Position numbers and translations under genes: made by a program. A stretch of DNA of 64,000 bases from Patescibacteria group bacterium (GTDB taxonomy: Bacteria; Patescibacteriota; Patescibacteriia; Magasanikbacterales; JBBTQS01): assembly GCA_038065555.1 (NCBI GenBank), contig JBBTQS010000001.1:467901-531900 (forward strand), given 5' to 3'. The notes beneath the pieces were generated by a model. That model was not told the DNA's origin and did no database searches. It was given only the letters and a program-made list of their open reading frames with translations. Below are positions 9,729 through 64,000 of this stretch, piece after piece (the stretch's first letter is position 1; the number at the start of each line of letters is the position of its first letter).

Positions 9729-10100
9729 CTAGAAAATAAGGCCAGCCTCGCGTGCACCATCGGCTACCGCGCGTACACGACCATGATAGCGGAAACCACC
9801 ACGATCGAATACTACTGTGGTAATCCCCTTTGCTTTTGCTGCTTCTGCGATGGCCTTGCCTACGGCAAATGCGAGGGCAACCTTTGCGCTGCGCTCACCT
9901 GCTGCATCTACCTTCACTGCGCCGCTGTGTACCGCCACAATTGTGGTGCCTGCGGTGTCATCAATAAGCTGCGCATACATGCTGCGCGCGCCACGAAACA
10001 CGCTCAAGCGAGGACGCTCTGCGGTTCCACTAATCTTTGCACGAATGCGACCATGTCGGCGCATGCGCGTCACTGCTTTGTGCTGTGTAAACACTTTCAT
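9729..10100 (-). CDS. rplR: 50S ribosomal protein L18
   Basis: RPRLSVFRGARSMYAQLIDD...GKAIAEAAKAKGITTVVFDRGGFRYHGRVRAVADGAREAGLIF. Confidence 0.95.
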   Translation of the reverse strand: MKVFTQHKAVTRMRRHGRIRAKISGTAERPRLSVFRGARSMYAQLIDDTAGTTIVAVHSGAVKVDAAGERSAKVALAFAVGKAIAEAAKAKGITTVVFDRGGFRYHGRVRAVADGAREAGLIF

Positions 10101-10684
10101 AGTACCGTCGGTTTAATGAGATGGAGTAAAAATTCGAGATTCCCTCCTTTGGCTCCGGTGATGGGCGATGCAATCACGTCGACAATGGGCATGCCATCGG
10201 CGATCAGTGCTGCAACTACGCGATCCTTCTCAGCGATACACTCTTCGAGCGAGAGCATGCCATGGCTTTTGCCACGAGCATGTCCCACGCGTTCGTAGTG
10301 CGGCTTGAGAAGACTCACGATGTGCCCGCCTTCGCGGAGTATGGAGAGAGCGTGTGGGAGAATCCGGCTCTGTGGTGTCCAACCGACATCGATGGAGACC
10401 ACGTCTACTTGTTCCGGAATGACAACGGTCTGTGCGTCAGTGCGTTCGAGCACTACGACGCGCGGATCATTGCGCAACTTCCAGTCGAGTACGCCGTATC
10501 CTTTGTCCACTGCATAGACGCGCGAGGCGCCATGCGACAACCAGACTTCCGTAAATCCTCCTGCGTGACAGCCGAGATCTGCTGCAACCGCACCTTGGAT
10601 TGGGAGGTCTTTCCATGCATCACATGCATGTGCGAGCTTCGCACCTGCTCGGCTCACACCTGCATGCGATGCAGCAGACGACAT
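10097..10684 (-). CDS. tlyA: TlyA-like FtsJ-fold rRNA 2'-O-methyltransferase of 195 aa, lacking the N-terminal S4 RNA-binding domain. It is embedded in the spc ribosomal operon.
   Basis: Motifs SRAGAKLAHA, DLGCHAGGFTEVWLSHGASRVYAVDKGYGVLDWKLRNDPRVVVLERTD and LLKPHYE match TlyA/hemolysin-A-family methyltransferases. The start lies 7 nt after the rplF stop, and its stop overlaps the rplR start by 4 nt (ATGA). Confidence 0.75.
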   Translation of the reverse strand: MSSAASHAGVSRAGAKLAHACDAWKDLPIQGAVAADLGCHAGGFTEVWLSHGASRVYAVDKGYGVLDWKLRNDPRVVVLERTDAQTVVIPEQVDVVSIDVGWTPQSRILPHALSILREGGHIVSLLKPHYERVGHARGKSHGMLSLEECIAEKDRVVAALIADGMPIVDVIASPITGAKGGNLEFLLHLIKPTVL

Positions 10685-26006: not shown

Positions 26007-27449
26007 ATGTCAGAAATGACACCAGGAGCAGAGGGTTTTGAATCCTTGGGTATTGATGCGCACATTCTTGAGCGCCTTACCAAACTCAAGTACACCACAC
26101 CAACGCCAATTCAGGCTGCTGCAATCCCCGTCGCCCTCACAGGCACAGACGTTGTCGGTATTGCACAAACAGGTACAGGCAAGACCCTCGCCTTTGGTGT
26201 TCCAATGTTGCAAACACTCGCAAAGTCCGAGAAAGGCCAAGGCCTCATTCTCGTACCAACACGCGAACTTGCACTGCAAGTTGAAGAAACCATGATCAAG
26301 ATCGGTTCCCATTTTGGGCTTGTCACTGCGGTACTGATCGGTGGTGCTTCTATGCAAATGCAGATTCGCAACTTGCGCCGCAATCCGCACGTGATCATCG
26401 CGACCCCAGGTCGCCTTGCAGATCACTTGCAGCAGCGCACGTGCTCATTGCAAGATATCGAAATCGTCGTTCTCGACGAAGCCGATCGCATGTTTGATAT
26501 TGGGTTCGCTCCACAAATCAAGAAAATCATGGCGCAGGTGCCGACAGAACGTCAGACGTTCCTCTTCTCCGCAACCATGCCACCAGCTATTGCTGCCATT
26601 GCTGCAGCGTATATGCGCTCCCCGAAACGTATTGAAGTAGCACCAGCTGGTACCAGTTCTTCGCAAGTAACACAGTCTCTCTACGTGGTGTCCAAAGACC
26701 ACAAGACGTCCCTCCTCGATCACCTTCTCCGCAAGCACGAGGGCACGGTGCTCGTCTTCTCTCGCACCAAACACGGCGCTCGCAAGATCGCCATGGCAAT
26801 CCGTGCGATGGGTCACACTTCTGTAGAAATTCACTCCAATCGTTCACTTGCGCAGCGCAAAGAAGCGCTTGCAGGATTCAAATCCGGTAAGTATCGCATC
26901 CTTGTCGCAACCGACATCGCCGCTCGCGGTATTGACGTAACAGGAATCACCCTCGTGGTGAACTTCGACCTCCCAGATAATAGCGAGGACTACGTACACC
27001 GCATCGGTCGAACCGGTCGCGCAGGCATGTCTGGTCTTGCAATCTCATTTGCACAGCCAGATCAGCGCAATGATGTTCGCGACATTGAACGCCTTATTCG
27101 TAAGTCGATCCATGTTGAAGAACTTCCAGACAACTTGCCCGCTCCTATTCGTCTCCCTGCAGAACCTCGCGCCGAATTCTCACGCCATGAGCGTGGTGGA
27201 TCTGGCGGCGGTTACGGCGGCGGACGCTCGGGTTCTGGTGGTCGCGGCGGTTCACGCGGTGGCTACGGTGGCGGCAACGGCGGTGGCGAACGAGAATATC
27301 GTCGCCCTACCAGTGGCAGCACCAGCCGCGCTCGCTCCAATAGCTACGGTTCGCAAGGCGGATTCGGTAGCAGCCGTGGCGGTGGCGCTGGATTTGGCGG
27401 CGGTTCTCGTCGTCCAAAGGAAGCACCGAAGTTCACGCGTCACTTCTAA
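26007..27449 (+). CDS. DEAD-box ATP-dependent RNA helicase with a Gly/Arg-rich (RGG-type) C-terminal tail
   Basis: Q-motif region, AQTGTGKT, DEAD, SAT and HRIGRTGRAG. The C-terminal ~90 aa are GGYGGGRSGSGGRGGSRGGYGGGNGG... Confidence 0.95.
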   Translation: MSEMTPGAEGFESLGIDAHILERLTKLKYTTPTPIQAAAIPVALTGTDVVGIAQTGTGKTLAFGVPMLQTLAKSEKGQGLILVPTRELALQVEETMIKIGSHFGLVTAVLIGGASMQMQIRNLRRNPHVIIATPGRLADHLQQRTCSLQDIEIVVLDEADRMFDIGFAPQIKKIMAQVPTERQTFLFSATMPPAIAAIAAAYMRSPKRIEVAPAGTSSSQVTQSLYVVSKDHKTSLLDHLLRKHEGTVLVFSRTKHGARKIAMAIRAMGHTSVEIHSNRSLAQRKEALAGFKSGKYRILVATDIAARGIDVTGITLVVNFDLPDNSEDYVHRIGRTGRAGMSGLAISFAQPDQRNDVRDIERLIRKSIHVEELPDNLPAPIRLPAEPRAEFSRHERGGSGGGYGGGRSGSGGRGGSRGGYGGGNGGGEREYRRPTSGSTSRARSNSYGSQGGFGSSRGGGAGFGGGSRRPKEAPKFTRHF

Positions 27450-27463
27450 AGTGCGCTAGCACA

Positions 27464-27540
27464 AACACCCCCAATTTATTCTTTCCAAGTCCTCCCCGTA
27501 AACTGAGGTCCGGGCTTGGAAAGAATAAATTGGGGGTGTT
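27464..27540. repeat. Long hairpin element, copy 1: a 26-bp perfect stem flanking the conserved 25-nt core TCCTCCCCGTAAACTGAGGTCCGGG, followed by TTTTTATT. It probably also serves as the bidirectional terminator for the helicase and corA.
   Basis: Arms AACACCCCCAATTTATTCTTTCCAAG / CTTGGAAAGAATAAATTGGGGGTGTT are exact reverse complements. The same core recurs at 38287 and, inverted, at 39163. Confidence 0.8.
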
Positions 27541-27554
27541 TTTATTACTGCACG

Positions 27555-28475
27555 TTAGAGCCAACGTTTGCGCGTAAAGATTGCGAGGAGGAAGATGGTG
27601 CTCACGAATGTGATCGCGATAATGAACGTGAAAGCCTGTGGATGTGATGCAAATGGTAGCGCGACGTTCATGCCGAAGAGACTGGTGACAAATGTTGGCA
27701 CCATGATGAGAATCGTGAGCGCAGTGAGCAACTTGATCACGCGATTCAATGAGTTGGTCATGATCGTTGAATACGCTTCGCGGATGTTGCGCATGTTCTG
27801 CACGTCGGCGTTGGCGTTCTCGATAATCTGACCAGCGCTCAACTCCAAGTCCTCAACAAGATCCTGGTCCTGTTCGTAGAGCGGAACATACTTGCCAGAG
27901 AGCAGTGCGTTGAGCATCGCACGACCTGGGACAAGTGCCGCAACGAAGTCGATGAGCACGCGCTCGAATGTCACGAACTGGATAATATCTCGGTCAGAGA
28001 CTGCGTGCAGATCAACACTCACAGAGCGAACCTTGCGACTAATCGATGTCAGGAATCCTGAGTAGCGCGCGAGCATTTGATTGAACAACTGCAATATGAA
28101 ATTCACCTTTTGTGTTGTAATGAGACTTGAAGCATTTGTCTGAAATGCCGTGAGCATCGGGATAGGTCGTGGTGCAATCGTGATCACGCCTTCAGCTGTG
28201 TGCACAATCAGAAGTGGCATTGTTGAGATGTGCTCCCCGTCTTGTACCGGCACACGCATGAAGAGGTAGATGTTGCCATCCTCTACTTCCAGACGCGGAA
28301 CTTCGTATGGATCGAGCGCGTCACGCAAATGACCGAGCTCGAGTTTGTGTTTTGCAACGAGCATTTCCAGCTCGTTCTCTGTAGGAGTCTCTGCGTACAA
28401 CCACGCACCAGCCTTCCAACTCGTGAGTGTACGCAAATCAGTATCCTTGATGGATTTGTAGAAGTATTTGATCAT
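27555..28475 (-). CDS. corA: CorA-family magnesium/cobalt transporter
   Basis: Two C-terminal TM helices with the GMN signature (LFGMNV). 306 aa. Confidence 0.85.
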   Translation of the reverse strand: MIKYFYKSIKDTDLRTLTSWKAGAWLYAETPTENELEMLVAKHKLELGHLRDALDPYEVPRLEVEDGNIYLFMRVPVQDGEHISTMPLLIVHTAEGVITIAPRPIPMLTAFQTNASSLITTQKVNFILQLFNQMLARYSGFLTSISRKVRSVSVDLHAVSDRDIIQFVTFERVLIDFVAALVPGRAMLNALLSGKYVPLYEQDQDLVEDLELSAGQIIENANADVQNMRNIREAYSTIMTNSLNRVIKLLTALTILIMVPTFVTSLFGMNVALPFASHPQAFTFIIAITFVSTIFLLAIFTRKRWL

Positions 28476-28496
28476 ACAGCATGCAACAGAACAATC

Positions 28497-30359
28497 TTAG
28501 CGAAGTACGCCACCCCACTCCACAACAGTGAATCCTTTGCGCTCTGGCGTCCGTATTGGCAACGGCTCTACTTCCTTGCGCTCTGTCAGCGGCTGATAAT
28601 CCATGAGAATGCGAATCGTGGTGTCAGGACGCGGTGTCACACGCAGCGGTGCGATGCGATTCATGAGCGTGTTGTCGTAGAACGTCACGAAATAGTACGG
28701 CGTTCTCTGCATGCGAGGTACCCAGAACTCCGCGAAATCTGCTCGCTCCTGCGTGTTGAGGCCGAGTTGCGTAAGTGTGCGCTCGAGGAACGCTGGCACC
28801 TCATCCTTTGCCACAACGAAACCACGTGATTCTGGCGTTCCAACTACAGACCCCTTTCCTTCCCAGAACAAATATCCCCACGTTTTGTTATCACGAACAT
28901 CTGTGAGTCGTCCTGTTGGTTCAGCGATGACATTCCACCCACCTGTCGGATAAAGCGGCTCAGTGATCGAAAATCCGTTCATTGGTTGCACTTGTACATT
29001 CACCTGTTGCGCCTTCTCTGGGTAGAGATAGATCACAGGCTTGCCACATTCTGCCACAGGCAAGAATTCAGTGCTGTGCATCTCATACGCGCGTCCAAAT
29101 TGATCCTGCCAGAAAATAATCGGATGGAGTGCTACAAATGCGTCGTAGCTGAGCGTCGTGCCTGGATGACGATACTCATAGGATGTGCGATGTGCATCAT
29201 ACATCCCCTTCAATTTCGCATGGTTAGGATCACGATATTCGTACACACGCGTATCCCCTGCGCCCTCAAATCCTGGAATCACGCGTCCAGCAATTTTGAA
29301 CTCAGCATTATTTGCAAGTGTTGTATCGGAGATCATGAGCAACGTGAACCCGCAACCACCCGCAGTATACGGTGCATAGGCGATGGTGTTGTTGGTTCCG
29401 TTGCTCCACGTTATTGCTGTCGCGTTATCAGCCTCAGGGCGCGCAACGGCAAATGGAAGATCCATCCGATATTTAACGTATGACCCGTCAGCCAACGGTG
29501 CGTAGAATAATCCAGTGCTCACCTTCTTTTCTCGGTACAACATGATCATGGTGGTGGTGCTGTTGCGCCACACAGGGACACTCACTGCTGGCTCGTAGTC
29601 AGAGGCAACGAACCAATTCATTTCTTCTGGGTACGTTGAGAATGGTGAGCCATCACCAAATACCGACCCTCCAAATTCACCGTCCATCGCAAAAGACACA
29701 CGTTCCTTCACCGAAACAATTTCCGTCGGTAACTCGAGCTCGTCAATTTTGATTGAATTATTCCAAACAGTGCCAGGCGCAACCTTCCACTCATCCATAC
29801 GGTCGCGCAGTTCATACACCTCACCTAGCCCCACGATGACTTGATCATTCGAATATGACCCGAGCACCACGTGCGCAGTACCTCGCTTGAGAACGTGCAG
29901 GAAAATAGGTTGTCCATACTCCACAAGACCATCTGCTCGAACAATGTGAATCTCCGCACCATTCCAAGCACCTTCTTCTCGCACCGTCCCTACGAACCAC
30001 TGCTTATACTTCGTTGTCGAAGTCACATTGGCAGTGAAAAACGTCACAGGAACTGACTTTGGCGCTGTTTCCCAGACAACATCCCCTGGCACAAACTGTG
30101 CGTAGATTTCATCCTGATTTTCTCCAGACGTTGGAGGTACGTTCTCTGGAGTACTTGTTGCCACTGTCTGTGGCTGCTGCTGTCGCATCGATGCATTCAC
30201 GAAGTATCCAGCAACAAACGCACCAAGAACTAACACGACAACGACCACCCAACCGAACACACGTGCGCCACTGCGCACTTCAGGCGACTGCATGTGATCC
30301 ATGGTTTCTTTTTTGAATGGAGGTTGCGATGGAGCCGCTGGCTTTTTTGGTTCTTCCAT
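28497..30359 (-). CDS. Large membrane-anchored extracellular protein of about 620 aa with a single N-terminal TM helix. Function unknown.
   Basis: TM segment VFGWVVVVVLVLGAFVAGYFV followed by a long Asn/Thr/Trp/Tyr-rich ectodomain. The start is taken at MEEPKKP, immediately after the stop of the upstream gene. The track ORF starts 54 nt earlier and would overlap. Confidence 0.6.
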   Translation of the reverse strand: MEEPKKPAAPSQPPFKKETMDHMQSPEVRSGARVFGWVVVVVLVLGAFVAGYFVNASMRQQQPQTVATSTPENVPPTSGENQDEIYAQFVPGDVVWETAPKSVPVTFFTANVTSTTKYKQWFVGTVREEGAWNGAEIHIVRADGLVEYGQPIFLHVLKRGTAHVVLGSYSNDQVIVGLGEVYELRDRMDEWKVAPGTVWNNSIKIDELELPTEIVSVKERVSFAMDGEFGGSVFGDGSPFSTYPEEMNWFVASDYEPAVSVPVWRNSTTTMIMLYREKKVSTGLFYAPLADGSYVKYRMDLPFAVARPEADNATAITWSNGTNNTIAYAPYTAGGCGFTLLMISDTTLANNAEFKIAGRVIPGFEGAGDTRVYEYRDPNHAKLKGMYDAHRTSYEYRHPGTTLSYDAFVALHPIIFWQDQFGRAYEMHSTEFLPVAECGKPVIYLYPEKAQQVNVQVQPMNGFSITEPLYPTGGWNVIAEPTGRLTDVRDNKTWGYLFWEGKGSVVGTPESRGFVVAKDEVPAFLERTLTQLGLNTQERADFAEFWVPRMQRTPYYFVTFYDNTLMNRIAPLRVTPRPDTTIRILMDYQPLTERKEVEPLPIRTPERKGFTVVEWGGVLR

Positions 30360-30360
30360 A

Positions 30361-32235
30361 TTAGCGAGGGAGAGAGAATGAACAATTGATGAGTTGCTTT
30401 TTGATTGCATCACTCACGCGCGAATGTTGTGAGAGATCTTTGCACAGTATAGCACGCTTCGATCCCAACAGGAGTTCCATCTGCATCGCATTGTTGTACA
30501 CGGGCATCAGTATGAACTGCGTTGCAGTAGGTTCGACTGAGAGTCCAACAGTGAGTCCAGTCTTCGTAGGCTCCGAGAAGAGTTGATCGAAGATGAAATT
30601 CCCCAGTGAGTAAAAAATCGCTTTTCCTTTGTACACCTCAATCGGCTGAACCACATGCGGATGTGCACCAATCACAACGTCCGCTCCTGCATCGATCATG
30701 GCGTGCGCAATAACCTCCTGACTCGAGTGCCAACCGTTCTGCTGATACTCCACTCCCCAATGCGGCATTGCAACAATATAGTCTGTCTTTGGTTCCAACT
30801 CACGAATCATTTTTGCAAGTGCTGGTACACCATTATCCCCTGTGAACTGATGAAATGCCACAAATCCAACCTTCTGCCCACGCACGTCTCGAATCGCAGT
30901 CACTGGCCGATTGAGTGGATCACCAAAGTAATCAACACTCGCCTCTGTGAGATACTTGTGCGTTTGCTTGAGCCCTGATTCACCGAAATTATGTGTGTGA
31001 TTATTACCCAGACTCACCATCGTAATACCGAGGTCATACAATGTCTTCGCATGTCGCGGCTCTGAGGTGAATGTGAGCAACCCATTTGGCTTCGCTACTG
31101 ACTTGAATGTGGTGAGCGGCGTCTCGAGGTTCGCCACCGTGATATCAGACCCGGAGATGAATCGTTCGATCTTCGCATATGGCCAACGATCCCCTTTTGC
31201 ATCGAACGTCGCACGCACTTTGCGATCGAGCATCATGTCGCCGAAGGCATGAATCGTAAATCGCGGCACCTCAACTCGACCACCTGTCACATAATATCCT
31301 GTGAAGTGTGAAGTATTCTCCGAGCTCTCCGGCTTCTTCGTGATCGAGTTACTACTTGTACGTGCAATTTGTCGCCACGCCAACGTCGCCTCGCCCTCAG
31401 CATCAATATCACGCATCATTTCTAACATGAATTGCAACCCTGGACGAGAATCAATATCGAGAGTACGCGCACCTCTTGCATCAAGAGTCTGCAACACTGT
31501 ACCTGCAGTCTGATCATGAAATAACGCCACATCCTCCGGAAGATAATGTGAGAAATCAAACGACCCAACAATGAGCACATCATCTGGCACATTCGCGTGC
31601 ACAATATCAGCCAACGCAGCAACAGTATCACTCGTAACTGAATCCCGAATCATGATCGGAACAATCGTTGCATTGGGCAGTGACGCACGGATGAACGGCA
31701 CAATACTGTAAACAGCGTGCTCCTTCGCAAAGGGAGCTTCTTCAACAGCAATTGTGGAAGTCGCAACCGTGAGCGCTGCAACAGCCGCAGCGTTGCTCTG
31801 CAGTACACCAAATGGCGTATTCCAAGGGCGAGCCGATGTAATGACTGCTGCGCGACCTTGCGTAAAATGATTCGGCGCGATCAACAGCACGGTTACTTTG
31901 CGATCACTTGCCACACCATCGAAGGCCTGCGCCACACGATCTGCAACCAACAAGTGATGCGGCACAATGAGTGCACGAGCACGCTGACCATCTCCACGTG
32001 TAGCAGTTTCGTCTGCTGCAAATTTCATCCGTGCTGCTGCGTATGCATCTTCGAACAATCGTTTGCTCAGGCCCGGAACCGTATGGCACGTGACCGCTTC
32101 ACACACGGACGGTGTGTTGAATCGCATCGTTGTCAGCACGTTCCAGGTCCGAGGCGCCGCAGCCGACACCCAGAACCCGACGCCAAAGGCTGCTGCAATA
32201 CTGAGTGCTGCAACGACTGCGATTCGATTGTTCAT
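30361..32235 (-). CDS. Fusion protein: N-terminal signal/TM segment, then a Memo/AmmeMemoRadiSam-B-like domain, then a C-terminal CapA-family (PgsA-like metallophosphatase) domain.
   Basis: The C-terminal half has CapA blocks GNNHTHNFG, MPHWGVEY, GAHPHVVQP and YSLGNFIFDQ. The N-terminal half (ALIVPHHLL...LLIAPNHF...) weakly resembles Memo-family proteins. The N-terminus MNNRIAVVAALSIAAAFGVGFW is hydrophobic. Confidence 0.7.
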   Translation of the reverse strand: MNNRIAVVAALSIAAAFGVGFWVSAAAPRTWNVLTTMRFNTPSVCEAVTCHTVPGLSKRLFEDAYAAARMKFAADETATRGDGQRARALIVPHHLLVADRVAQAFDGVASDRKVTVLLIAPNHFTQGRAAVITSARPWNTPFGVLQSNAAAVAALTVATSTIAVEEAPFAKEHAVYSIVPFIRASLPNATIVPIMIRDSVTSDTVAALADIVHANVPDDVLIVGSFDFSHYLPEDVALFHDQTAGTVLQTLDARGARTLDIDSRPGLQFMLEMMRDIDAEGEATLAWRQIARTSSNSITKKPESSENTSHFTGYYVTGGRVEVPRFTIHAFGDMMLDRKVRATFDAKGDRWPYAKIERFISGSDITVANLETPLTTFKSVAKPNGLLTFTSEPRHAKTLYDLGITMVSLGNNHTHNFGESGLKQTHKYLTEASVDYFGDPLNRPVTAIRDVRGQKVGFVAFHQFTGDNGVPALAKMIRELEPKTDYIVAMPHWGVEYQQNGWHSSQEVIAHAMIDAGADVVIGAHPHVVQPIEVYKGKAIFYSLGNFIFDQLFSEPTKTGLTVGLSVEPTATQFILMPVYNNAMQMELLLGSKRAILCKDLSQHSRVSDAIKKQLINCSFSLPR

Positions 32236-32244
32236 ACGAAATGA

Positions 32245-33429
32245 TTAGATGCGAGATTCAACCTGCAACACGTACGAAGTGAGATAGCGCGACTCTGGGA
32301 AATACACAGACTGTGGATGATCCGTGCTCTGCCCAACAACAGCGAGCACACGTACGATGACTCCAGCCTGCACCGACGCACGGCGCAACACGAACTGAAA
32401 ATCATCTTCGGTCAAGAAATGTGAGCAGCTCGACGTCACAAAGATTCCACCCGTCTTCACCAGACGTAGCGCCGCACGATTGAGGAAGTGATATGCCTTC
32501 ATTCCCTCTTCTTGGTCCTTCTGAGACTTAATCAGCGCTGGTGGATCGAGAATCACCATGTCATATTCTGGTGTACGACGATCACCGAACCACTGAAACA
32601 CATCAGACTCAACATTCTCAACTTTTTTCGATGACAACTTGTTCGCCTTGAGCATCGCCTCGCACCCTGCGAGCGCAAACGCCGAGCTATCCACATTCAC
32701 AACACTCTCTGCCCCACCCTTGAGTGCTGCAACTGCTGACGCACCTGTGTACGAAAATACGTTTGCAACTGTCTTGCCCTCTGCATAGCGTTCGATCAAA
32801 TCACGCAAATCCTTTTGGTCGAGAAATGCGCCGGTCTTTTGTCCTTGCAACACGTACGCGATCGATGCACGACCATGTTCAACGTACGCAACTGCATCCT
32901 CAGTCTCGCCGTAGATCACGCCTTCCTTTGCATCGAGTCCCTCGTCGCGTCGCACACCAATATCACTGCGCTCAACAATCGCACGTGGCGAGAAGATGTG
33001 TGTGAGTGCATCAACAATCTCCGTACGCATGTTCTCCATGGTCGTAATCGAAATCTGTAGAACAAGCACATCGTCATATCGATCAACAACCAATCCAGGG
33101 AGTCCATCAGACTCGCCGAACACCACGCGATATCCTGTTGTGTCAGTCCCCGGTCCGTAGCCGAGCAACTTGCGTCGCTCGTTGGCAGCGCGAATCTTCT
33201 TCTCGATCCATGCACTATCGATCACGGCGTCATCCCATGCCATCATGCGCACCGCGATCGACCCATGACTGGAATACGATCCAACGCCCAAGAGCGAGCC
33301 AGTGGCACTTACCACTCCCACCATGGATCCGTGGACAATTTTTTCATCCTTATTATCAATGGCGCCAGAGAAAATCCATGGATGACGGACACCTACGGTT
33401 GCCTCTTTGCCTTTTTTCAACTGAATCAT
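32245..33429 (-). CDS. rlmI: Class I SAM-dependent 23S rRNA m5C methyltransferase, RlmI/YccW family (PUA-like N-terminus plus methyltransferase domain)
   Basis: Architecture and motifs (…VANVFSYTGASAVAAL…DMVILDPPAL…GGIFVTSSCS) are typical of RlmI. The start is taken at MIQLKKGKEATVG. Confidence 0.7.
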   Translation of the reverse strand: MIQLKKGKEATVGVRHPWIFSGAIDNKDEKIVHGSMVGVVSATGSLLGVGSYSSHGSIAVRMMAWDDAVIDSAWIEKKIRAANERRKLLGYGPGTDTTGYRVVFGESDGLPGLVVDRYDDVLVLQISITTMENMRTEIVDALTHIFSPRAIVERSDIGVRRDEGLDAKEGVIYGETEDAVAYVEHGRASIAYVLQGQKTGAFLDQKDLRDLIERYAEGKTVANVFSYTGASAVAALKGGAESVVNVDSSAFALAGCEAMLKANKLSSKKVENVESDVFQWFGDRRTPEYDMVILDPPALIKSQKDQEEGMKAYHFLNRAALRLVKTGGIFVTSSCSHFLTEDDFQFVLRRASVQAGVIVRVLAVVGQSTDHPQSVYFPESRYLTSYVLQVESRI

Positions 33430-33500
33430 CGGGTACATATCGAGTAAAAAACGAATAAAGCGCTTCAAATTATCACTGGACCTATGGTACACTAGCGCAT

Positions 33501-34259
33501 ATGTTGTCACAACCCTACCTGCGCCACCTCAGAACGGTCGGACAATTCACGGTTTGGCTCGTAAATGGTGCACACGTACGAAGTGAAATCAACGAACAGT
33601 TCACCAACTTCGGCCAGCACTACCGATTCCCGTTCATTCCCAAATACGAATTCTGGATTGACCACCTCACTCACCCGCAGGAGATCCACTATTTCATCGA
33701 CCACTTGATCGCCGAGTGGCGCGCGATGGACGCAGGTGCGTCCTATGTCGATGCCATTGGTCATGCAGATCGTATTGAGCGCGCGGAGCGTCACCACAGT
33801 CGGATTTATCGTGAGTTGCACGGACACGAACGCTCACATCCCAAGGAAGTGCTCCGCCACATCCACGTGGAGCCACTACGCAAGTACAGCACTCGCGAGC
33901 TTGCCGTCTGGATTGTGCGCAGCGACGTCATCAGAGATCTTTTTTATGTCGACTTCACCGAAGGCGGGCACGGATTTGTCTATCCATTTGTTCCGATGAA
34001 CGAGGTGTGGATCGACGAAGACCTCACACCACACGAGCGACCATACGTCGTGCTCCACGAATTACACGAACGCAACCTCATGGCGCACCATCGCTACGAC
34101 TATCCACGCGCCCACCGCAGCGCAAGCGCAGTAGAAGCATTTTGTCGTCACCATCCAACAGCAATACAACGCAAAATCGCGGCCGAGGCACGTGTTGCTG
34201 CCCGACCGCGATCCATTGTCACACCTAATTACAAATGGTGGGATGTGGTGAAAGCTTAG
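33501..34259 (+). CDS. Hypothetical His-rich protein of 252 aa with an internal tandem duplication. A metal-binding role is possible.
   Basis: Two repeats share the pattern [FY]x[FY]PF[IV]PxxExWID..LT..E..Y[FV][IV].H[LE][IL].E, and the protein has 27 histidines. Its 3' end overlaps the convergent anti-sigma-like gene by 4 nt. Confidence 0.55.
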   Translation: MLSQPYLRHLRTVGQFTVWLVNGAHVRSEINEQFTNFGQHYRFPFIPKYEFWIDHLTHPQEIHYFIDHLIAEWRAMDAGASYVDAIGHADRIERAERHHSRIYRELHGHERSHPKEVLRHIHVEPLRKYSTRELAVWIVRSDVIRDLFYVDFTEGGHGFVYPFVPMNEVWIDEDLTPHERPYVVLHELHERNLMAHHRYDYPRAHRSASAVEAFCRHHPTAIQRKIAAEARVAARPRSIVTPNYKWWDVVKA

Positions 34260-34993
34260 TCTCGATCCACATTCAGACGTCGAATCCCAAACGCACGGAT
34301 ACCGTCGCCGTCTTCTTCACCAAAGATCATAATGTCATCCCCAACACGCAGCTCACGACCTTGAGCCTTTTTTGTTCCTTTGTTGGTGCGAACACGAATC
34401 CGTTTTCCCTCTCGCTCTTCGCCTGGATGTATTGCAGGTCGAGCCATTGGCGGCGCAATACGAATTTCTGGTTCACCATTATGCATCTCAACAACCCTAC
34501 CCCGCTTCACTTCATGCACAGGGAGTGACTCATAATGTTGGTACACTGGCTGCGCAATTGGCAATCGATGACTCGGCCCATGGATCGGCGTGTAATACGC
34601 AAGTGCAGCACCACCTAGCGCCACAAATACCAATCCAGCTACGACGGTATACAACAGTGGTCGTCGATACGCAAATGCATACCGACGCACCAACACCTCG
34701 AGCACCAGCACAAAGACAAATGCAATTCCGATCACAAGCCATGGCAATGAATACAAGAAGTACCCAACCCCACGCATGCCGAACTCAGGCAGAAATCCAA
34801 TATCTGTAGTGCGCGCAACAAATACTACGAAGCTCACCAAATACAACCCAACCAACAACACGAGTACCACACCCAACACTGCAAGTGCCGCGCGCAATAC
34901 AAAGTGCCATCGTGGTCGCATCGCGACACGACCCTCCTGAATCTTTTGCTCGATCAGGTCTCGAATAGATTGTGGTTCTTGTGGTGTGCTCAT
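34256..34993 (-). CDS. Putative membrane-bound anti-sigma factor of 245 aa, translationally coupled to the ECF sigma gene
   Basis: A 4-nt overlap with the upstream ECF sigma gene. Cytoplasmic N-terminus, then 3-4 TM helices. No conserved motif, so the call rests on position alone. Confidence 0.4.
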   Translation of the reverse strand: MSTPQEPQSIRDLIEQKIQEGRVAMRPRWHFVLRAALAVLGVVLVLLVGLYLVSFVVFVARTTDIGFLPEFGMRGVGYFLYSLPWLVIGIAFVFVLVLEVLVRRYAFAYRRPLLYTVVAGLVFVALGGAALAYYTPIHGPSHRLPIAQPVYQHYESLPVHEVKRGRVVEMHNGEPEIRIAPPMARPAIHPGEEREGKRIRVRTNKGTKKAQGRELRVGDDIMIFGEEDGDGIRAFGIRRLNVDRD

Positions 34994-35556
34994 ACGAGAT
35001 GCTCGGGGTTCTGAATATACGACTTCAATTTTTCGCGAGCCCGCCGCAGACGAACGCCCACAGTCGCAACAGGCAAACGCAAAATCTCGGCAATTTCCTT
35101 GTAATCCAGCTCCTGGAAGTAATACAACACAAGGGGCTCTCGATATTTCACATCGAGCTCTGCTAGATGCTTTTCGATCTGCTGCCGCACCTGCGTTCGG
35201 TGCATCGCATCCTCTGGATCCTCAATATTCCCTGCCAACTGTGGCAAAAGTGTGTCGAAATCAAGTGACACCACACGCTCGCGGCCCTTCTTCTTGATCG
35301 CATTAATGAATTCGTTGTGCGCGACGCGGTAGAGCCACGATGAGAACTTGCGATCCGGATCCACACTGCGCAAGTTCGTGTACGCCTTGATGAACACATC
35401 CTGTACACAATCCTGACACTCCTCTGCATCGAGCAAGAACTTGCGCGCATACCGCAACATCTTCGCCTCGTACCGCTCGATCAATTCGCGAAATACAAAA
35501 AGTTCACCTGCCTGCACCCGCACGACCAATTCTTCATCAGTAGGAGTCGTGGGCAT
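34990..35556 (-). CDS. ECF-type RNA polymerase sigma-70 factor
   Basis: Sigma-70 region 2 (…QDVFIKAYTNL…FSSWLYRVAHNEFINAIKKK) and region 4 (…LDYKEIAEILRLPVATVGVRLRRAREKLK). 188 aa. Confidence 0.85.
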   Translation of the reverse strand: MPTTPTDEELVVRVQAGELFVFRELIERYEAKMLRYARKFLLDAEECQDCVQDVFIKAYTNLRSVDPDRKFSSWLYRVAHNEFINAIKKKGRERVVSLDFDTLLPQLAGNIEDPEDAMHRTQVRQQIEKHLAELDVKYREPLVLYYFQELDYKEIAEILRLPVATVGVRLRRAREKLKSYIQNPEHLV

Positions 35557-36585: not shown

Positions 36586-37152
36586 TTATTCGTTGACGCG
36601 AGCACTGTACTCACCCGTCTCCGTATTCACGAGAATTTCCTCGCCTTCCTTGATGAAGATTGGTGCCTGCACATGGAGGCCATTGTCGAGCGTAATATCC
36701 TTGGTCACGTTGCCAGCAGTGCTGTCCCCGCGAACCGCAGGAGGTGCTTCGACGACACGGTACTGAACCTTCTTCGGCAACTGGATCGTTACCACACGCT
36801 CTTCGAACATGACACCGAGTACCTCGAGGCCTTCCTTGAGATACTTCACATCATCGCCGATCGTGTCTGCCTCGATCTCCTCGGTCCCGAAGGTAACCTG
36901 GTTCATGAACGAGTAGAACGTACCGTTGTTGTAGAGATACTGGAGGTTGACGTACTGCACCTGTACATTGTCGATGCTTTCGCCTGACTTGTACGTGATG
37001 TTAGTACCCTTACCACTCGTAATACTCTTCATCTTTGTCTTCACGAACGCCGAACCCTTGCCTGGATTCACAAACTGCGCGTCAGTGATGACGTAGAGGT
37101 CGTTCTGGTGGCGAATAATGCCGCCCTTCTTAATGTCTGTTGTATCGCCCAT
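36586..37152 (-). CDS. efp: Elongation factor P
   Basis: 188 aa. The loop VNPGKGSAFVKTK carries the conserved modifiable Lys, and the three-domain length fits EF-P. Confidence 0.9.
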   Translation of the reverse strand: MGDTTDIKKGGIIRHQNDLYVITDAQFVNPGKGSAFVKTKMKSITSGKGTNITYKSGESIDNVQVQYVNLQYLYNNGTFYSFMNQVTFGTEEIEADTIGDDVKYLKEGLEVLGVMFEERVVTIQLPKKVQYRVVEAPPAVRGDSTAGNVTKDITLDNGLHVQAPIFIKEGEEILVNTETGEYSARVNE

Positions 37153-37156
37153 ACTA

Positions 37157-38215
37157 TTAATCGAAAAGAATTGACATCGGCAATGCTATCACGTCATTGA
37201 TATTCTGGCAACCAGTCATGACCTGCACCATTCGGTCAATTCCCAGAGCAATTCCAGAGGATTCTGGCATTCCAGCGCGCAGCGCGTCGATGAATTCACG
37301 ATCTACTGCAAAGACATCTTTGCCAGCAAGCCGTCGCTCCTCGCGCTCCAACTCAAGGCGTCGCAACTGCTCATGGTGATCCGTGAGTTCTCCAAACGCA
37401 TTGGCCAACTCCATCCCGCTCACATACAACTCAAACCGCTGCGCATAGCGTGGATCATTTGGCGCCAATCGCGCCAGCGCCGCCATCTCCGCAGGATATC
37501 CATACAAGAACACAGGACCAGACTCCGCAGTACCAATATTCGGTTCAATCTCATTCAAGAAAACGCGATAGAACAAATCTGCGTACGACTCAGTCTCAGC
37601 AGCAGCGTACCCCTTCTCACGACACAACACATACATCGCCTCACGCGTCAGGTACTGCTCGAGATCAACATTTGCATACTGTCGCCACACATCACGCATG
37701 TGCAATCGCGCCCAAGGCTGACGGAGAATCCGCGATTGCTCAATGGCTGGCCGAACTGCATCCGCGTGCGGCCCATCAAGTAATGCATTGGCCACAGAGA
37801 CGAAGAGTGATTCAGTATCATCCATGATCGCCCAGTAATCTGCCCCAGCACGATACCACTCAATCATCATGAACTCTGGATTGTGTGTTCCGCCGAATGA
37901 CTCATTGTCACGAAAAACTTTTTGCATGGAGAAGATGCGCTGCTCTCCTGCTGCAAGCAACTTCTTCATGGTGTACTCAGGCGAGGTATGCAAATACCCC
38001 GTGCGCTCCACATTCTTGTCATCACGCACAGCGATCCGCATCGGCGACAAATACGGCTCCTGCCCCGGAAGTTGCAAGATCGTAGGCGCATCAACTTCAA
38101 CAAATGACTGCAACCAGAAAAATGTGCGGGTCAACCGCATGATCTCCGATCGAATCTGCAAATTCTGCCGCACGCGGCGAAGGTGTTCCAGGTGGCGCAT
38201 ACGCATTGTATTCAA
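37157..38215 (-). CDS. epmA: EF-P lysine lysyltransferase EpmA (PoxA/GenX), a truncated class II LysRS paralogue
   Basis: Class II motifs (…FRDNESFGGTHNPEFMMIEWY… and …GMPESSGIALGIDRMVQVMTG) without an anticodon-binding domain. It lies immediately upstream of efp. Confidence 0.8.
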   Translation of the reverse strand: MNTMRMRHLEHLRRVRQNLQIRSEIMRLTRTFFWLQSFVEVDAPTILQLPGQEPYLSPMRIAVRDDKNVERTGYLHTSPEYTMKKLLAAGEQRIFSMQKVFRDNESFGGTHNPEFMMIEWYRAGADYWAIMDDTESLFVSVANALLDGPHADAVRPAIEQSRILRQPWARLHMRDVWRQYANVDLEQYLTREAMYVLCREKGYAAAETESYADLFYRVFLNEIEPNIGTAESGPVFLYGYPAEMAALARLAPNDPRYAQRFELYVSGMELANAFGELTDHHEQLRRLELEREERRLAGKDVFAVDREFIDALRAGMPESSGIALGIDRMVQVMTGCQNINDVIALPMSILFD

Positions 38216-39287: not shown

Positions 39288-39602
39288 TTAGCGATCGAAT
39301 CCGCCACGGCGGAAACCACCAGTGCTTCCACCTGCTGGACGAGGACCACGATCTTCACGTGGCTGTGCAACGGATACGCGGATAGCGCGGCCGTCAACTT
39401 CCTTACCATCAAGCTGAGCAATAGCAGCTTCAGCTTCTGCGTCCGTAGAGAATTCTACGAAGCCGAAACCTTTCGAGCGTCCAGTAGCATGATCTTTCAC
39501 AACTGTAGCAGATACAACAGTACCTACCTGAGAGAATGCAGCGTGCATGCTCTCATCTGTGGTCGCCCATGCGAGTCCGCCGATAAACAACTTATTTGCC
39601 AT
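39288..39602 (-). CDS. RRM-type RNA-binding protein (RNP-1/RNP-2 motifs) with a Gly/Arg-rich tail
   Basis: MANKLFIGGLAWATTDESM… is RNP-2, and …KGFGFVEF is RNP-1. The start is taken at the internal Met. Confidence 0.85.
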   Translation of the reverse strand: MANKLFIGGLAWATTDESMHAAFSQVGTVVSATVVKDHATGRSKGFGFVEFSTDAEAEAAIAQLDGKEVDGRAIRVSVAQPREDRGPRPAGGSTGGFRRGGFDR

Positions 39603-39754
39603 AGTAACTTTTTCTATATCCTGCACGGCGACCTTTACAGCACGTACAGATAGAGCAATTCTAGCACATTTGGACCGGGTTGTCAATGGCCCAAAACGCC
39701 CGTGTTGTTGTGAGGCTTATTCTGGCGTATACTAGGGCTATATTTGTTTTTTCT

Positions 39755-63143: not shown

Positions 63144-64000
63144 ATGAAATACCCTGGTAAATCACTCCAATGGTCCGGATTGGTTCTCGGATGCGCTGCA
63201 GTGTTGGCTCTGGCTGCGTGGGGCGGATATTGGTACGGAACCAGGCAAACATCGAGCACACCACAATCACAACGCGGGGTATTGTTGCGCACCAACACAG
63301 GTGAGCTCCCCCATATCAATCCACTCCTCATGTGCGAGGTGGCAACGGAGGAAGTAACTGAATTGCTGCCCATCAAAGCAGTGCTCGAAGATCGCGTAGC
63401 AACACTGCGACGCAATAGAGACATCACACAAGCATCACTCTACGTGCGCACGCTCAACAGCGGACGGTGGTTCGAAATTAATCCAGACGAACAGTACACG
63501 CCGGCAAGTTTGCTCAAGACTGCGATGCTTATGGCGTACTTGCGCATTGCTGAAATGCAGCCAGAGATACTCAATGTTTCGATTCCTTTTGTGCCGAAGT
63601 CTGCGGCAACCACGGCTGTTGTTGCCCCCACTACGACGCTCACACCTCGCCAGTCATACACGATTGGTACGTACCTCAATCAACTCATTGTTGAATCTGA
63701 CAACCAAGCTCTTGAGGTTTTGCGTGCGTATCTCGCCGCTCATCATCCAGCAGCACTCGCTCAAACCTACAAAGATCTCGCGCTACCAACTGACAACGAC
63801 CCTACAGCACATTCCATCACGCCGCGGATGTACTCGCGTCTCTTCTCTTTGCTTTACAACGCAACATATCTCGGACGCGAAACATCCGAGGCTGCCATTG
63901 AACTCCTGATCGCCAGCTCATACAAAAAAGGACTCGTCGCAGGCGTTCCAGCGGGCATGAGTGTCGCACACAAATTTGGCGAACGTGCGATTGCAACGCC
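63144..64000 (+). CDS. Membrane-anchored serine hydrolase, class A beta-lactamase / penicillin-binding-like. This is the N-terminal part; the gene runs off the right edge.
   Basis: My own translation from the ATG at about 63144: TM anchor LVLGCAAVLALAAWGGYWYG, then TPASLLKTAM (SxxK), ESDNQA (SDN) and VAHKFGER (KTG-like). It is missing from the ORF track because no stop lies in the window. Confidence 0.6.
   Translation, partial: MKYPGKSLQWSGLVLGCAAVLALAAWGGYWYGTRQTSSTPQSQRGVLLRTNTGELPHINPLLMCEVATEEVTELLPIKAVLEDRVATLRRNRDITQASLYVRTLNSGRWFEINPDEQYTPASLLKTAMLMAYLRIAEMQPEILNVSIPFVPKSAATTAVVAPTTTLTPRQSYTIGTYLNQLIVESDNQALEVLRAYLAAHHPAALAQTYKDLALPTDNDPTAHSITPRMYSRLFSLLYNATYLGRETSEAAIELLIASSYKKGLVAGVPAGMSVAHKFGERAIAT

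What the first reader, a model, noticed from the sequence alone, without database searches (positions are those of the whole stretch)
28497..32235. Memo-like-CapA fusion protein next to a 620-aa membrane-anchored extracellular protein
CapA/PgsA-family metallophosphatases are associated with poly-gamma-glutamate or capsule polymer biogenesis. Here the CapA domain is fused to a Memo/AmmeMemoRadiSam-B-like N-terminal domain behind a hydrophobic N-terminus. It is immediately followed (with 1-nt spacing) by a large single-pass extracellular protein rich in Asn, Thr, Trp and Tyr. This is probably a cell-surface polymer or envelope module with an unusual domain fusion.
Basis: partly seen in the sequence, partly recalled or inferred. 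Interest (0 to 1): 0.5.

Follow-up and report, generated by a model that had tools for sequence, protein, structure and literature searches.

The report
Conserved Memo-CapA plus orphan-protein surface module
Two adjacent genes of an ultra-small groundwater bacterium (Patescibacteria) encode membrane-anchored surface proteins, a fused Memo-CapA metalloenzyme and a 620-residue protein unlike anything characterised, and this pairing recurs across the whole phylum, so it is a real functional unit of unknown function rather than a capsule-synthesis locus.

Summary
Window 30361-32235 (-) encodes a 624-aa protein with an N-terminal anchor, a complete Memo fold and a CapA/PGA_cap domain. One nucleotide downstream, 28497-30359 (-) encodes a single-pass 620-aa protein.

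The capsule interpretation is not supported. No PgsB or PgsC lies in about 58 kb, and CapA is not the conserved part.

In 80 species genomes carrying an ORF2 homologue, 69 have a Memo-type gene directly adjacent on the same strand. That is 69 of 73 where both flanks can be judged. Only about half of these partners carry CapA; the rest are Memo-only or have a degenerate CapA. No third gene family recurs.

A sister clade of Memo-CapA fusions pairs in the same way with DUF3160 proteins.

Best reading: a self-contained, membrane-tethered extracytoplasmic enzyme pair with intact metal sites. It probably acts on a peptide-type surface substrate or on ORF2 itself. The chemistry is inferred, not shown.

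Interest is moderate: the comparative signal is solid, but the function remains open.

The parts
30361..32235 (-). ORF1: 624-aa membrane-anchored Memo-CapA fusion protein (public id MEK7647896.1)
32155..32229 (-). ORF1 N-terminal hydrophobic signal anchor (residues 3-27)
   Evidence: Kyte-Doolittle scan. The AF2 model has a helix at residues 2-38. 65 of 67 partner proteins have such a segment before the Memo core.
31336..32013 (-). ORF1 Memo / LigB-fold domain (about residues 75-300), with conserved H93, H94, H123, E172, H173, D227, H230 and D262
30583..31257 (-). ORF1 CapA / PGA_cap calcineurin-fold domain (Pfam residues 327-551), with D333, E371, N412, H413, N416, H492, E496, H525 and H527
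30357..30363 (-). ORF1 stop TAA, 1-nt spacer, ORF2 start ATG (arrangement compatible with translational coupling)
   Evidence: sequence read
28497..30359 (-). ORF2: 620-aa single-pass protein of a large uncharacterised Patescibacteria family (public id MEK7647895.1)
30198..30260 (-). ORF2 transmembrane anchor (residues 34-54), with a Lys/Arg-containing N-terminal tail predicted to be cytoplasmic
   Evidence: AF2 helix at residues 30-59; 42 of 44 family members have such a segment
29235..30101 (-). ORF2 beta-rich, more variable ectodomain half (residues 87-375), containing invariant C336 in a low-confidence GGCG loop
   Evidence: AF2 secondary structure and pLDDT. Many homologues align only from about residue 280 onward. 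Conservation by region.
28500..29234 (-). ORF2 highly conserved alpha/beta C-terminal domain (residues 376-620), with motifs AECGKPVIYLYP, YLFWEG and EWGGV
   Evidence: alignments; no sequence or fold relative found

Best explanation
The two genes form a self-contained module that is conserved across Patescibacteria. Its products work together on the outer face of the cytoplasmic membrane.

Shown:
- Both proteins carry a single N-terminal hydrophobic anchor followed by a large folded domain.
- The genes are 1 nt apart.
- ORF2-family genes sit directly beside a Memo-type gene, on the same strand and on either side, in 69 of 80 species genomes. No other gene family recurs.
- The Memo metal-site residues and the CapA residues equivalent to the MslH catalytic and metal residues are conserved.
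- ORF2 has 50 near-invariant positions and no recognisable relative.

Inferred:
- Topology is N-in, C-out, so all catalytic domains are extracytoplasmic. The two proteins are made in a fixed ratio and form a membrane-tethered complex.
- ORF1 is a bifunctional metalloenzyme. Its Memo domain is the obligatory partner of ORF2.
- Its CapA domain is an optional add-on. By analogy with MslH, it would carry out metal-dependent acid/base chemistry, such as C-alpha epimerisation, at a peptide carboxylate.

Most likely mechanism (low confidence): the conserved C-terminal domain of ORF2 binds or processes a peptide-containing surface substrate. Cell-wall stem peptides are the most concrete candidate. The Memo and CapA sites then modify that substrate in sequence.

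The module is neither a poly-gamma-glutamate synthase nor an AmmeMemoRadiSam system.
For: Synteny.
- At least 583 species genomes carry the ORF2 family.
- Of 80 loci, 69 have an adjacent Memo-family ORF. Only 4 loci with both flanks of at least 1 kb lack one.
- Gene order is about 50:50 upstream versus downstream.
- The next most frequent neighbouring family occurs in only 7 of 80 loci.

Architecture of the adjacent Memo partner.
- 33 full Memo-CapA fusions.
- 19 Memo-only proteins.
- 3 proteins of about 500 aa with an internal deletion that removes the NNH and HWG motifs.
- One split gene pair, and one locus with CapA 3.5 kb away.

Active sites.
- H93, H123, D227 and H230 are present in 65 of 65 Memo partners.
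- D333, E371, N412, H413, H492, H525 and H527 are conserved in 35-37 of 37 CapA domains.
- They map onto MEMO1 H49, H81, D189 and H192 and onto MslH Asp11, Glu44, Asn87, His88, His259 and His295.

Anchors. 65 of 67 Memo partners and 42 of 44 ORF2 members have an N-terminal hydrophobic segment.

ORF2 family.
- 7,669 clusters at 50% identity, of which 4,572 score E<=1e-30.
- 50 columns are at least 97% identical in 250 members. They include K440, E500, E538, R583, R607, E614, C336 and C438.
- Cys counts are mostly 2 or 4, as expected for extracytoplasmic disulfides.

Precedent for peptide substrates. MslH epimerises a peptide C-terminal residue, and its discoverers propose that CapA is a PGA epimerase (PMC10406935; PMC8179263).
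Against: - No biochemical data exist for any member, and the substrate is unknown.
- Physical interaction between ORF1 and ORF2 was not tested; no multimer prediction was available.
- Topology rests on hydrophobicity and charge only.
- The window's ORF1 has Asn416 where MslH has the essential Asp91. Asp is present in 30 of 37 relatives.
- The MEMO1 Cys244 equivalent could not be aligned.
- ORF2 sequences carry no imprint of whether the partner has CapA. CapA therefore need not touch ORF2 or its substrate.
- Memo-CapA fusions also pair with the unrelated DUF3160 family. That fits an enzyme-plus-client model at least as well as a shared-substrate model.
- Four loci with good flanks lack an adjacent Memo gene.
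Confidence: 0.55

Rival explanations
1. Enzyme-plus-client model. ORF2 is not a co-enzyme but the substrate of ORF1. The Memo domain, optionally helped by CapA, installs a post-translational modification or cofactor in ORF2 after export. A candidate site is the invariant Cys336 in its flexible GGCG loop, or the invariant C-terminus. ORF2 then performs its own, still unknown, surface function.
For: - Memo-CapA fusions pair in the same tight, same-strand, either-side manner with unrelated large anchored proteins. These are the ORF2 family (15 of 45 metagenome loci), DUF3160 (13 of 18 remaining loci examined) and an alpha-2-macroglobulin-like protein in L136, whose homologues also flank the fusions in L124 and L135.
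- This is the pattern expected of a maturase with different clients.
- Both characterised relatives handle peptides or proteins: MslH, and MEMO1, for which phosphopeptide binding is recalled from memory rather than checked here.
- C336 is 99% conserved yet lies in a segment with pLDDT below 50.
Against: - The 50 near-invariant ORF2 positions cluster in a folded C-terminal domain and look like an active or binding site, not a modification motif.
- No ORF2 position tracks the presence or absence of CapA.
- C336 and C438 are most simply explained as a disulfide, since 130 of 250 members have exactly two Cys.
- No modification has been observed.
Confidence: 0.25
2. One reading: a poly-gamma-glutamate or capsule-polymer biogenesis module. 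ORF1 would act as the CapA/PgsA subunit of a polymer synthase, and ORF2 would be a polymer-handling surface protein.
For: - A strong PGA_cap hit (1.7e-57).
- A membrane-anchored ectodomain, as described for Bacillus CapA/PgsA (own knowledge).
- An extracellular neighbour rich in aromatic residues.
Against: - No Mur-ligase-type PgsB/CapB or CapC family among the Pfam-annotated genes covering about 58 kb of the window.
- No such family recurs in 160 homologous loci.
- The CapA domain is missing or degenerate in about half of the modules, while ORF2 and Memo persist.
- The PGA_cap family is much wider than PGA producers. Its only structurally and biochemically characterised member is a lasso-peptide epimerase.
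Confidence: 0.07
3. The database annotation: ORF1 is protein B of an AmmeMemoRadiSam system, working with AMMECR1 and a radical-SAM activase.
For: TIGR04336 scores 99.6 bits against a cut-off of 26. NCBI names the protein accordingly.
Against: - No AMMECR1 or Radical_SAM family appears in the annotated 58 kb or as a recurrent neighbour.
- The protein is membrane-anchored with a predicted external domain. That is incompatible with a cytoplasmic radical-SAM partner.
- The match covers only profile positions 26-212 of 270.
Confidence: 0.03
4. ORF2 is a non-enzymatic structural or adhesive surface protein, for example for host attachment. The adjacency to Memo reflects only co-expression of envelope proteins.
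For: ORF2 is a large single-pass ectodomain protein with a variable N-terminal half. Patescibacteria are often epibionts (own knowledge).
Against: - Adjacency is kept in 69 of 80 genomes despite otherwise unrelated neighbourhoods and flipped gene order. That argues for a specific functional link.
- The invariant charged residues (K440, E500, E538, R583, R607, E614) are atypical for a purely structural adhesin.
Confidence: 0.1

Closest known systems
CapA/PgsA of the Bacillus poly-gamma-glutamate synthase (PgsBCA/CapBCAE)
   Same: PGA_cap (PF09587) calcineurin-fold domain behind an N-terminal membrane anchor. The conserved GD, NLE, NNH, HWG, GAHPH and GNFxFDQ motifs are present.
   Different: No PgsB or PgsC partners. 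The domain is fused to a Memo domain. The conserved partner is an unrelated 600-aa orphan protein. The CapA domain is dispensable in about half of the modules.
MslH, lasso-peptide C-terminal Trp epimerase (PDB 8GQ9)
   Different: Scores 53 bits against the family cut-off of 700. There is no lasso-peptide cluster. The protein is predicted to be extracytoplasmic and membrane-anchored. It has Asn416 instead of Asp91, an extra His525 (full GAHPH motif), and no His at the His261 position.
MEMO1 / AmmeMemoRadiSam system protein B (Memo family, LigB superfamily)
   Different: Membrane-anchored and predicted to be external. No AMMECR1 or radical-SAM partners. The Cys244 ligand could not be aligned; an invariant Asp262 may replace it (inference). 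It is paired with the ORF2 family.
Memo-CapA fusion plus DUF3160 gene pairs (found here in metagenome contigs)
   Same: The same fusion architecture with an N-terminal anchor, directly adjacent on the same strand and on either side to a large anchored protein of unknown function.
   Different: The partner is DUF3160 (PF11369, 830-950 aa), which is unrelated to ORF2 (hhalign probability 5.7%). The fusion proteins are only about 30% identical to ORF1.

Membership tests
Poly-gamma-glutamate synthase system (PgsBCA / CapBCAE) | Membrane-anchored CapA/PgsA protein with a PGA_cap domain | tested here: met
   PF09587 at 1.7e-57, residues 327-551; N-terminal hydrophobic segment at residues 3-27
Poly-gamma-glutamate synthase system (PgsBCA / CapBCAE) | Co-encoded PgsB/CapB (Mur-ligase-type amide ligase) and PgsC/CapC | tested here: not met
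   No such Pfam family among the called genes across about 58 kb of the window. No recurrent third family in 80 plus 18 homologous loci. The rest of the genome could not be searched.
Poly-gamma-glutamate synthase system (PgsBCA / CapBCAE) | Production of poly-gamma-glutamate | not testable with these tools
   Needs culture work or chemistry
AmmeMemoRadiSam system | Protein B: match to TIGR04336 above its cut-off | tested here: met
   99.6 bits against a cut-off of 26, but only profile positions 26-212 of 270 are matched
AmmeMemoRadiSam system | Co-occurrence with AMMECR1 and the radical-SAM protein AmrS | tested here: not met
   Neither family appears in the annotated 58 kb, nor as a recurrent neighbour in 80 loci. 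Genome-wide presence was not testable.
AmmeMemoRadiSam system | Cytoplasmic location, compatible with a radical-SAM partner | tested here: not met
   An N-terminal hydrophobic anchor precedes the Memo core in 65 of 67 partner proteins. Topology is predicted, not measured.
Memo family (PF01875) / MEMO1 | Memo fold | tested here: met
Memo family (PF01875) / MEMO1 | Metal-site residues H49, H81, D189, H192 and C244 of MEMO1 | tested here: inconclusive
   H93, H123, D227 and H230 align to the first four and are present in 65 of 65 relatives. The C244 region is not covered by any sequence alignment. Invariant D262 is only a candidate replacement. The role of H49, H81 and C244 as ligands comes from PMC9477392.
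MslH-type peptide epimerase (NF038314) | Family-level sequence score | tested here: not met
   53.3 bits against a cut-off of 700; the local match covers only residues 508-548
MslH-type peptide epimerase (NF038314) | Calcineurin-like fold with Asp11, Glu44, Asn87, His88, Asp91, His259, His261 and His295 | tested here: inconclusive
MslH-type peptide epimerase (NF038314) | Lasso-peptide biosynthetic gene cluster context | tested here: not met
   The neighbours are housekeeping genes
Any described family, for ORF2 | Significant sequence or fold match | tested here: not met
DUF3160 (PF11369), for ORF2 | Profile-profile similarity | tested here: not met
   hhalign probability 5.7%

The most novel reading that the evidence does not exclude
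Memo-type proteins of Patescibacteria may be extracytoplasmic maturation enzymes. In this reading they install a post-translational modification or built-in cofactor in large exported client proteins such as the ORF2 family and DUF3160, sometimes assisted by a fused CapA-type epimerase. That would give the enigmatic Memo family its first defined biochemical role. It would also reveal ORF2 as a new-fold surface enzyme that is core to the biology of this phylum.
Probability: 0.2. Interest if true: 0.8.

Novelty: new variant of a known kind. Interest (0 to 1): 0.55.

Why it matters
Patescibacteria make up a large share of bacterial diversity, and their surface biology is almost uncharacterised. 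This work turns a single odd-looking fusion into a defined, testable unit. A Memo-type ectoenzyme is obligatorily paired with a very large orphan family of several thousand sequence clusters. That family has enzyme-grade conservation and no detectable relative.

Three points follow:
- The Memo family still has no agreed biochemical function. Here it gains a conserved partner and a location.
- The CapA domain, outside any poly-gamma-glutamate context, behaves as an optional accessory to another system.
- The current annotation, 'AmmeMemoRadiSam system protein B' next to a 'hypothetical protein', is misleading.

If the pair acts on cell-wall peptides or matures a surface enzyme, it would be a phylum-specific envelope process.

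Tried and rejected
Looking for relatives of ORF2.
- Pfam, NCBIfam and PHROGs on ORF2, on its two halves and on all 44 aligned members gave nothing consistent.
- PF28423, listed for one homologue, could not be reproduced with the local Pfam copy.
- The afdb50 fold library was unavailable.

Looking for Rosetta-stone Memo-ORF2 fusions.
- The long family members (740-815 aa) carry only weak PsbP-like N-terminal extensions.

Distant Memo-CapA fusions from GC-rich organisms (P0036, P0038).
- Their neighbours are unrelated to ORF2.

Testing whether ORF2 is a divergent DUF3160.
- Rejected.

Looking for ORF2 positions that track CapA presence.
- None found, and the two classes are not phylogenetically separated.

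Promoter and terminator scan of 27300-33800.
- Counts were no higher than in shuffled sequence.

Literature.
- No paper links Memo, CapA and Patescibacteria.
- The supplements of the Patescibacteria Tn-seq study contain none of 'Memo', 'AmmeMemoRadiSam', 'CapA' or 'poly-gamma-glutamate'.
- DUF3160 is mentioned once, as a 'secreted enzyme'.

Single-sequence PDB search with the Memo half.
- It failed; only the family profile reaches MEMO1.
Full report
WHAT IS THERE

On the minus strand, window 30361-32235 encodes a 624-aa protein (ORF1). Window 28497-30359 encodes a 620-aa protein (ORF2).

Both sequences occur with identical residues in public assemblies from Hainich groundwater, on contigs of up to 881 kb. 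NCBI lists them under 'Patescibacteria group bacterium' as MEK7647896.1 'AmmeMemoRadiSam system protein B' and MEK7647895.1 'hypothetical protein'.

The upstream RlmI-like PUA/SAM methyltransferase and the downstream CorA gene are 9 and 21 nt away on the same strand. No promoter-like or terminator-like signal exceeds shuffled expectation in 27300-33800.

ORF1

- Pfam places Memo at residues 80-244 and PGA_cap at 327-551. NCBIfam gives TIGR04336 at 1.7e-28.
- An AF2 model built on 26 homologues is confident (pLDDT 89.2, pTM 0.86), which suggests the two domains pack rigidly.
- A profile alignment equates H93, H123, D227 and H230 with MEMO1 H49, H81, D189 and H192. H49, H81 and C244 are the modelled metal ligands of MEMO1 (PMC9477392). 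The C244 region is not aligned, and an invariant Asp262 is only a candidate replacement (inference).
- In the CapA domain, D333, E371, N412, H413, H492 and H527 correspond to MslH Asp11, Glu44, Asn87, His88, His259 and His295 (PMC10406935). The Asp91 position is Asn416 in the window.
- A single hydrophobic segment (residues 3-27) precedes everything.

ORF2

- It has a Lys/Arg-containing N-terminal tail, one transmembrane helix (residues 34-54), a beta-rich half (87-375) and an alpha/beta C-terminal domain (376-620). The AF2 model has mean pLDDT 80.5, with 281 residues at 90 or above.
- Nothing in Pfam, NCBIfam or PHROGs matches, even when all 44 aligned members are scanned.
- A family profile finds no PDB sequence at E<=1.
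- The family is nevertheless very large. It has 7,669 representatives at 50% identity with E<=1e-3 and 4,572 with E<=1e-30, and lengths are almost all 550-620 aa.
They span Parcubacteria/Paceibacteria, Doudna-, Kerfeld-, Falkow-, Uhr-, Magasanik-, Moran-, Portnoy-, Gottesman-, Gracili-, Peregrini-, Berkelbacteria and Kazan.
- Some records are labelled 'uncultured Gammaproteobacteria'. One of these is a 0.93-Mb chromosome, so I regard those labels as unreliable. I could not verify that.
- Across 250 members, 50 positions are at least 97% identical. They include C336, C438, K440, E500, E538, R583, R607, E614, D419 and many Trp/Tyr. No His is conserved.
- Most members have exactly 2 or 4 Cys, as expected for exported, disulfide-bonded proteins.
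- The N-terminal half is much more variable.

THE CONSERVED UNIT

I fetched 80 ORF2-family loci from different species genomes and searched their six-frame ORFs with HMMs of the Memo half, the CapA half and ORF2.

- A Memo-family ORF lies directly beside ORF2, on the same strand, in 69 loci.
- Seven of the remaining 11 loci lack a flank on one side. Only four loci with both flanks of at least 1 kb have no Memo gene.
- Gene order is split about evenly, 32 upstream and 31 downstream among the 63 loci scored automatically.
- Clustering every ORF in these loci shows only two recurrent families: ORF2 (80 of 80) and Memo (69 of 80). The next family is in 7 loci. This is therefore a self-contained two-gene module in otherwise unrelated neighbourhoods.

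The CapA domain is not the constant.

- 33 partners are full fusions and 19 are Memo-only proteins of about 300 aa.
- Three partners of about 500 aa (L009, L011, L060) have an internal deletion of profile positions 389-483. That deletion removes the NNH and HWG motifs.
- One locus is split into adjacent Memo and CapA ORFs (L014). Another has CapA 3.5 kb away (L017).
- Fusion and Memo-only forms are interspersed among lineages.
- ORF2 sequences do not separate by partner class. Mean identity is 0.32 within fusions, 0.34 within Memo-only and 0.33 between the classes, and no column discriminates them.
- Catalytic-type residues are kept. H93, H123, D227 and H230 are present in 65 of 65 Memo partners. 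The CapA set is present in 35-37 of 37 domains, and position 416 is Asp in 30 and Asn in 7.
- 65 of 67 partners have a hydrophobic segment before the Memo core.

THE RECIPROCAL VIEW

A metagenome scan with the fusion profile gave 45 fusions.

- Fifteen have ORF2 adjacent.
- Eleven with good flanks do not. These are about 30% identical to ORF1.
- This second group has its own conserved neighbour in 13 of the 18 no-ORF2 loci examined. It is an anchored protein of 830-950 aa belonging to DUF3160 (PF11369, E down to 1e-201), again on the same strand and on either side.
- Three loci share a large partner of roughly 1,250 aa instead. In L136 it is alpha-2-macroglobulin-like with a Hint insert.
- ORF2 and DUF3160 are unrelated (hhalign probability 5.7%).
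- Three distant Memo-CapA fusions (P0036-P0038, about 25% identical to ORF1) appear to come from GC-rich organisms. The neighbours of the two checked, P0036 and P0038, are unrelated to ORF2.

CONTEXT

Pfam-annotated gene calls cover about 58 kb of the window. They show the S10/spc ribosomal cluster, SecY, EF-G/EF-Tu, EF-P, an ECF-type sigma factor, glycolysis, nucleotide metabolism, YceG and TGT. There is no Mur-ligase-type PgsB, no CapC, no AMMECR1 and no radical-SAM gene.

INTERPRETATION

Shown:
- The two genes are a conserved module.
- The conserved core is Memo plus the ORF2 family.
- Both proteins carry N-terminal anchors.
- Both ORF1 domains keep their metal and catalytic residues.
- ORF2 has enzyme-grade conservation and no known relative.

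Inferred:
- Topology is N-in, C-out, so the chemistry happens outside the cytoplasm.
- The two proteins form a complex.
- The substrate is peptide-like.

The peptide inference rests on two precedents. The only characterised CapA-family enzyme epimerises a peptide C-terminal residue, and its discoverers propose the same role for CapA in PGA synthesis (PMC10406935; PMC8179263). MEMO1 is reported to bind peptides in its metal site, which is my own knowledge and was not checked here.

I commit to a membrane-tethered enzyme pair acting in sequence on a peptide-containing surface substrate, with CapA as an optional extra step. I give the module-level statement about 0.8 and the specific chemistry about 0.3.

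The main rival is that ORF2 is a client matured by Memo(-CapA). The promiscuous pairing with unrelated large exported proteins favours that model. I rate it about 0.25.

The capsule and AmmeMemoRadiSam readings fail their defining co-occurrence tests.

NOVELTY

- The individual ORF1 domains belong to known families, and the fusion architecture is already present in databases.
- The full-text library searched here holds no paper describing this module. The Pfam, NCBIfam and PHROG copies used contain no family matching ORF2.
- The new points are: the Memo-ORF2 pairing, its breadth across the phylum, the accessory status of CapA, the parallel DUF3160 pairing, and the lack of any sequence or fold relative for ORF2.
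- I rate the finding a new variant of known kinds of enzyme module with an orphan core component. Interest is moderate, at 0.55.

Noticed in passing
L095, L102, L107, L108, L109, L114, L115, L117, L119, L122, L151 (e.g. L109:1328-3817 next to L109:3821-5572): A sister clade of anchored Memo-CapA fusions is paired with anchored DUF3160 (PF11369) proteins of 830-950 aa, on the same strand and on either side. This is a second conserved module parallel to the one in the window.
   Followed up: partly
L136:2-3835 (homologous ORFs at L135:1-3756 and L124:1-1011): In three loci the Memo-CapA fusion lies next to the same family of very large protein. The one scanned (L136, about 1,278 aa) is alpha-2-macroglobulin-like and carries a Hint/intein-type insert (PF07703, PF00207, PF17973, PF07591).
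   Followed up: no
L009:3679-5178, L011:3907-5412, L060:4001-5542: Memo partners of about 500 aa whose CapA domain has an internal deletion of roughly 95 residues. The deletion removes the NNH and HWG motifs, so this is probably an inactive remnant retained as a structural domain.
   Followed up: partly
L087:563-4897, upstream of L087:4982-7003: A distant Memo-CapA fusion (P0038, about 25% identical to ORF1 and apparently from a GC-rich organism) is preceded by a 1,444-aa protein with Phage_lysozyme, Trypsin_2 and Amidase_2 domains. This is a single hint of a cell-wall connection.
   Followed up: no
window 10097-10684 (-): An FtsJ-type methyltransferase gene (PF01728, 195 aa) sits inside the ribosomal spc cluster, between the L6 and L18 genes. 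That is not a usual member of this operon.
   Followed up: no
window 37157-38050 (-) and 36586-37152 (-): A truncated class-II aminoacyl-tRNA-synthetase paralogue (PF00152, about 297 aa) lies 4 nt upstream of the EF-P gene. The arrangement resembles an EpmA/PoxA-type EF-P modification enzyme.
   Followed up: no
window 34256-35556 (-): An ECF-type sigma-70 gene overlaps by 4 nt a 245-aa membrane protein with no Pfam match, a likely anti-sigma factor, two genes upstream of ORF1. This arrangement is not conserved next to the module in other genomes.
   Followed up: no
window 63144-63998 (+), cut by the window end: A class-A beta-lactamase-like gene (PF13354, 355 aa in the public call) lies next to a block of DHFR, dCTP deaminase and dCMP deaminase genes.
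   Followed up: no
window 39288-39626 (-): A small RRM_1 (eukaryote-type RNA-recognition motif) protein of 112 aa.
   Followed up: no
L013:1492-2442 and L013:6755-7780: One genome carries two Memo-only paralogues flanking its ORF2-family gene.
   Followed up: no
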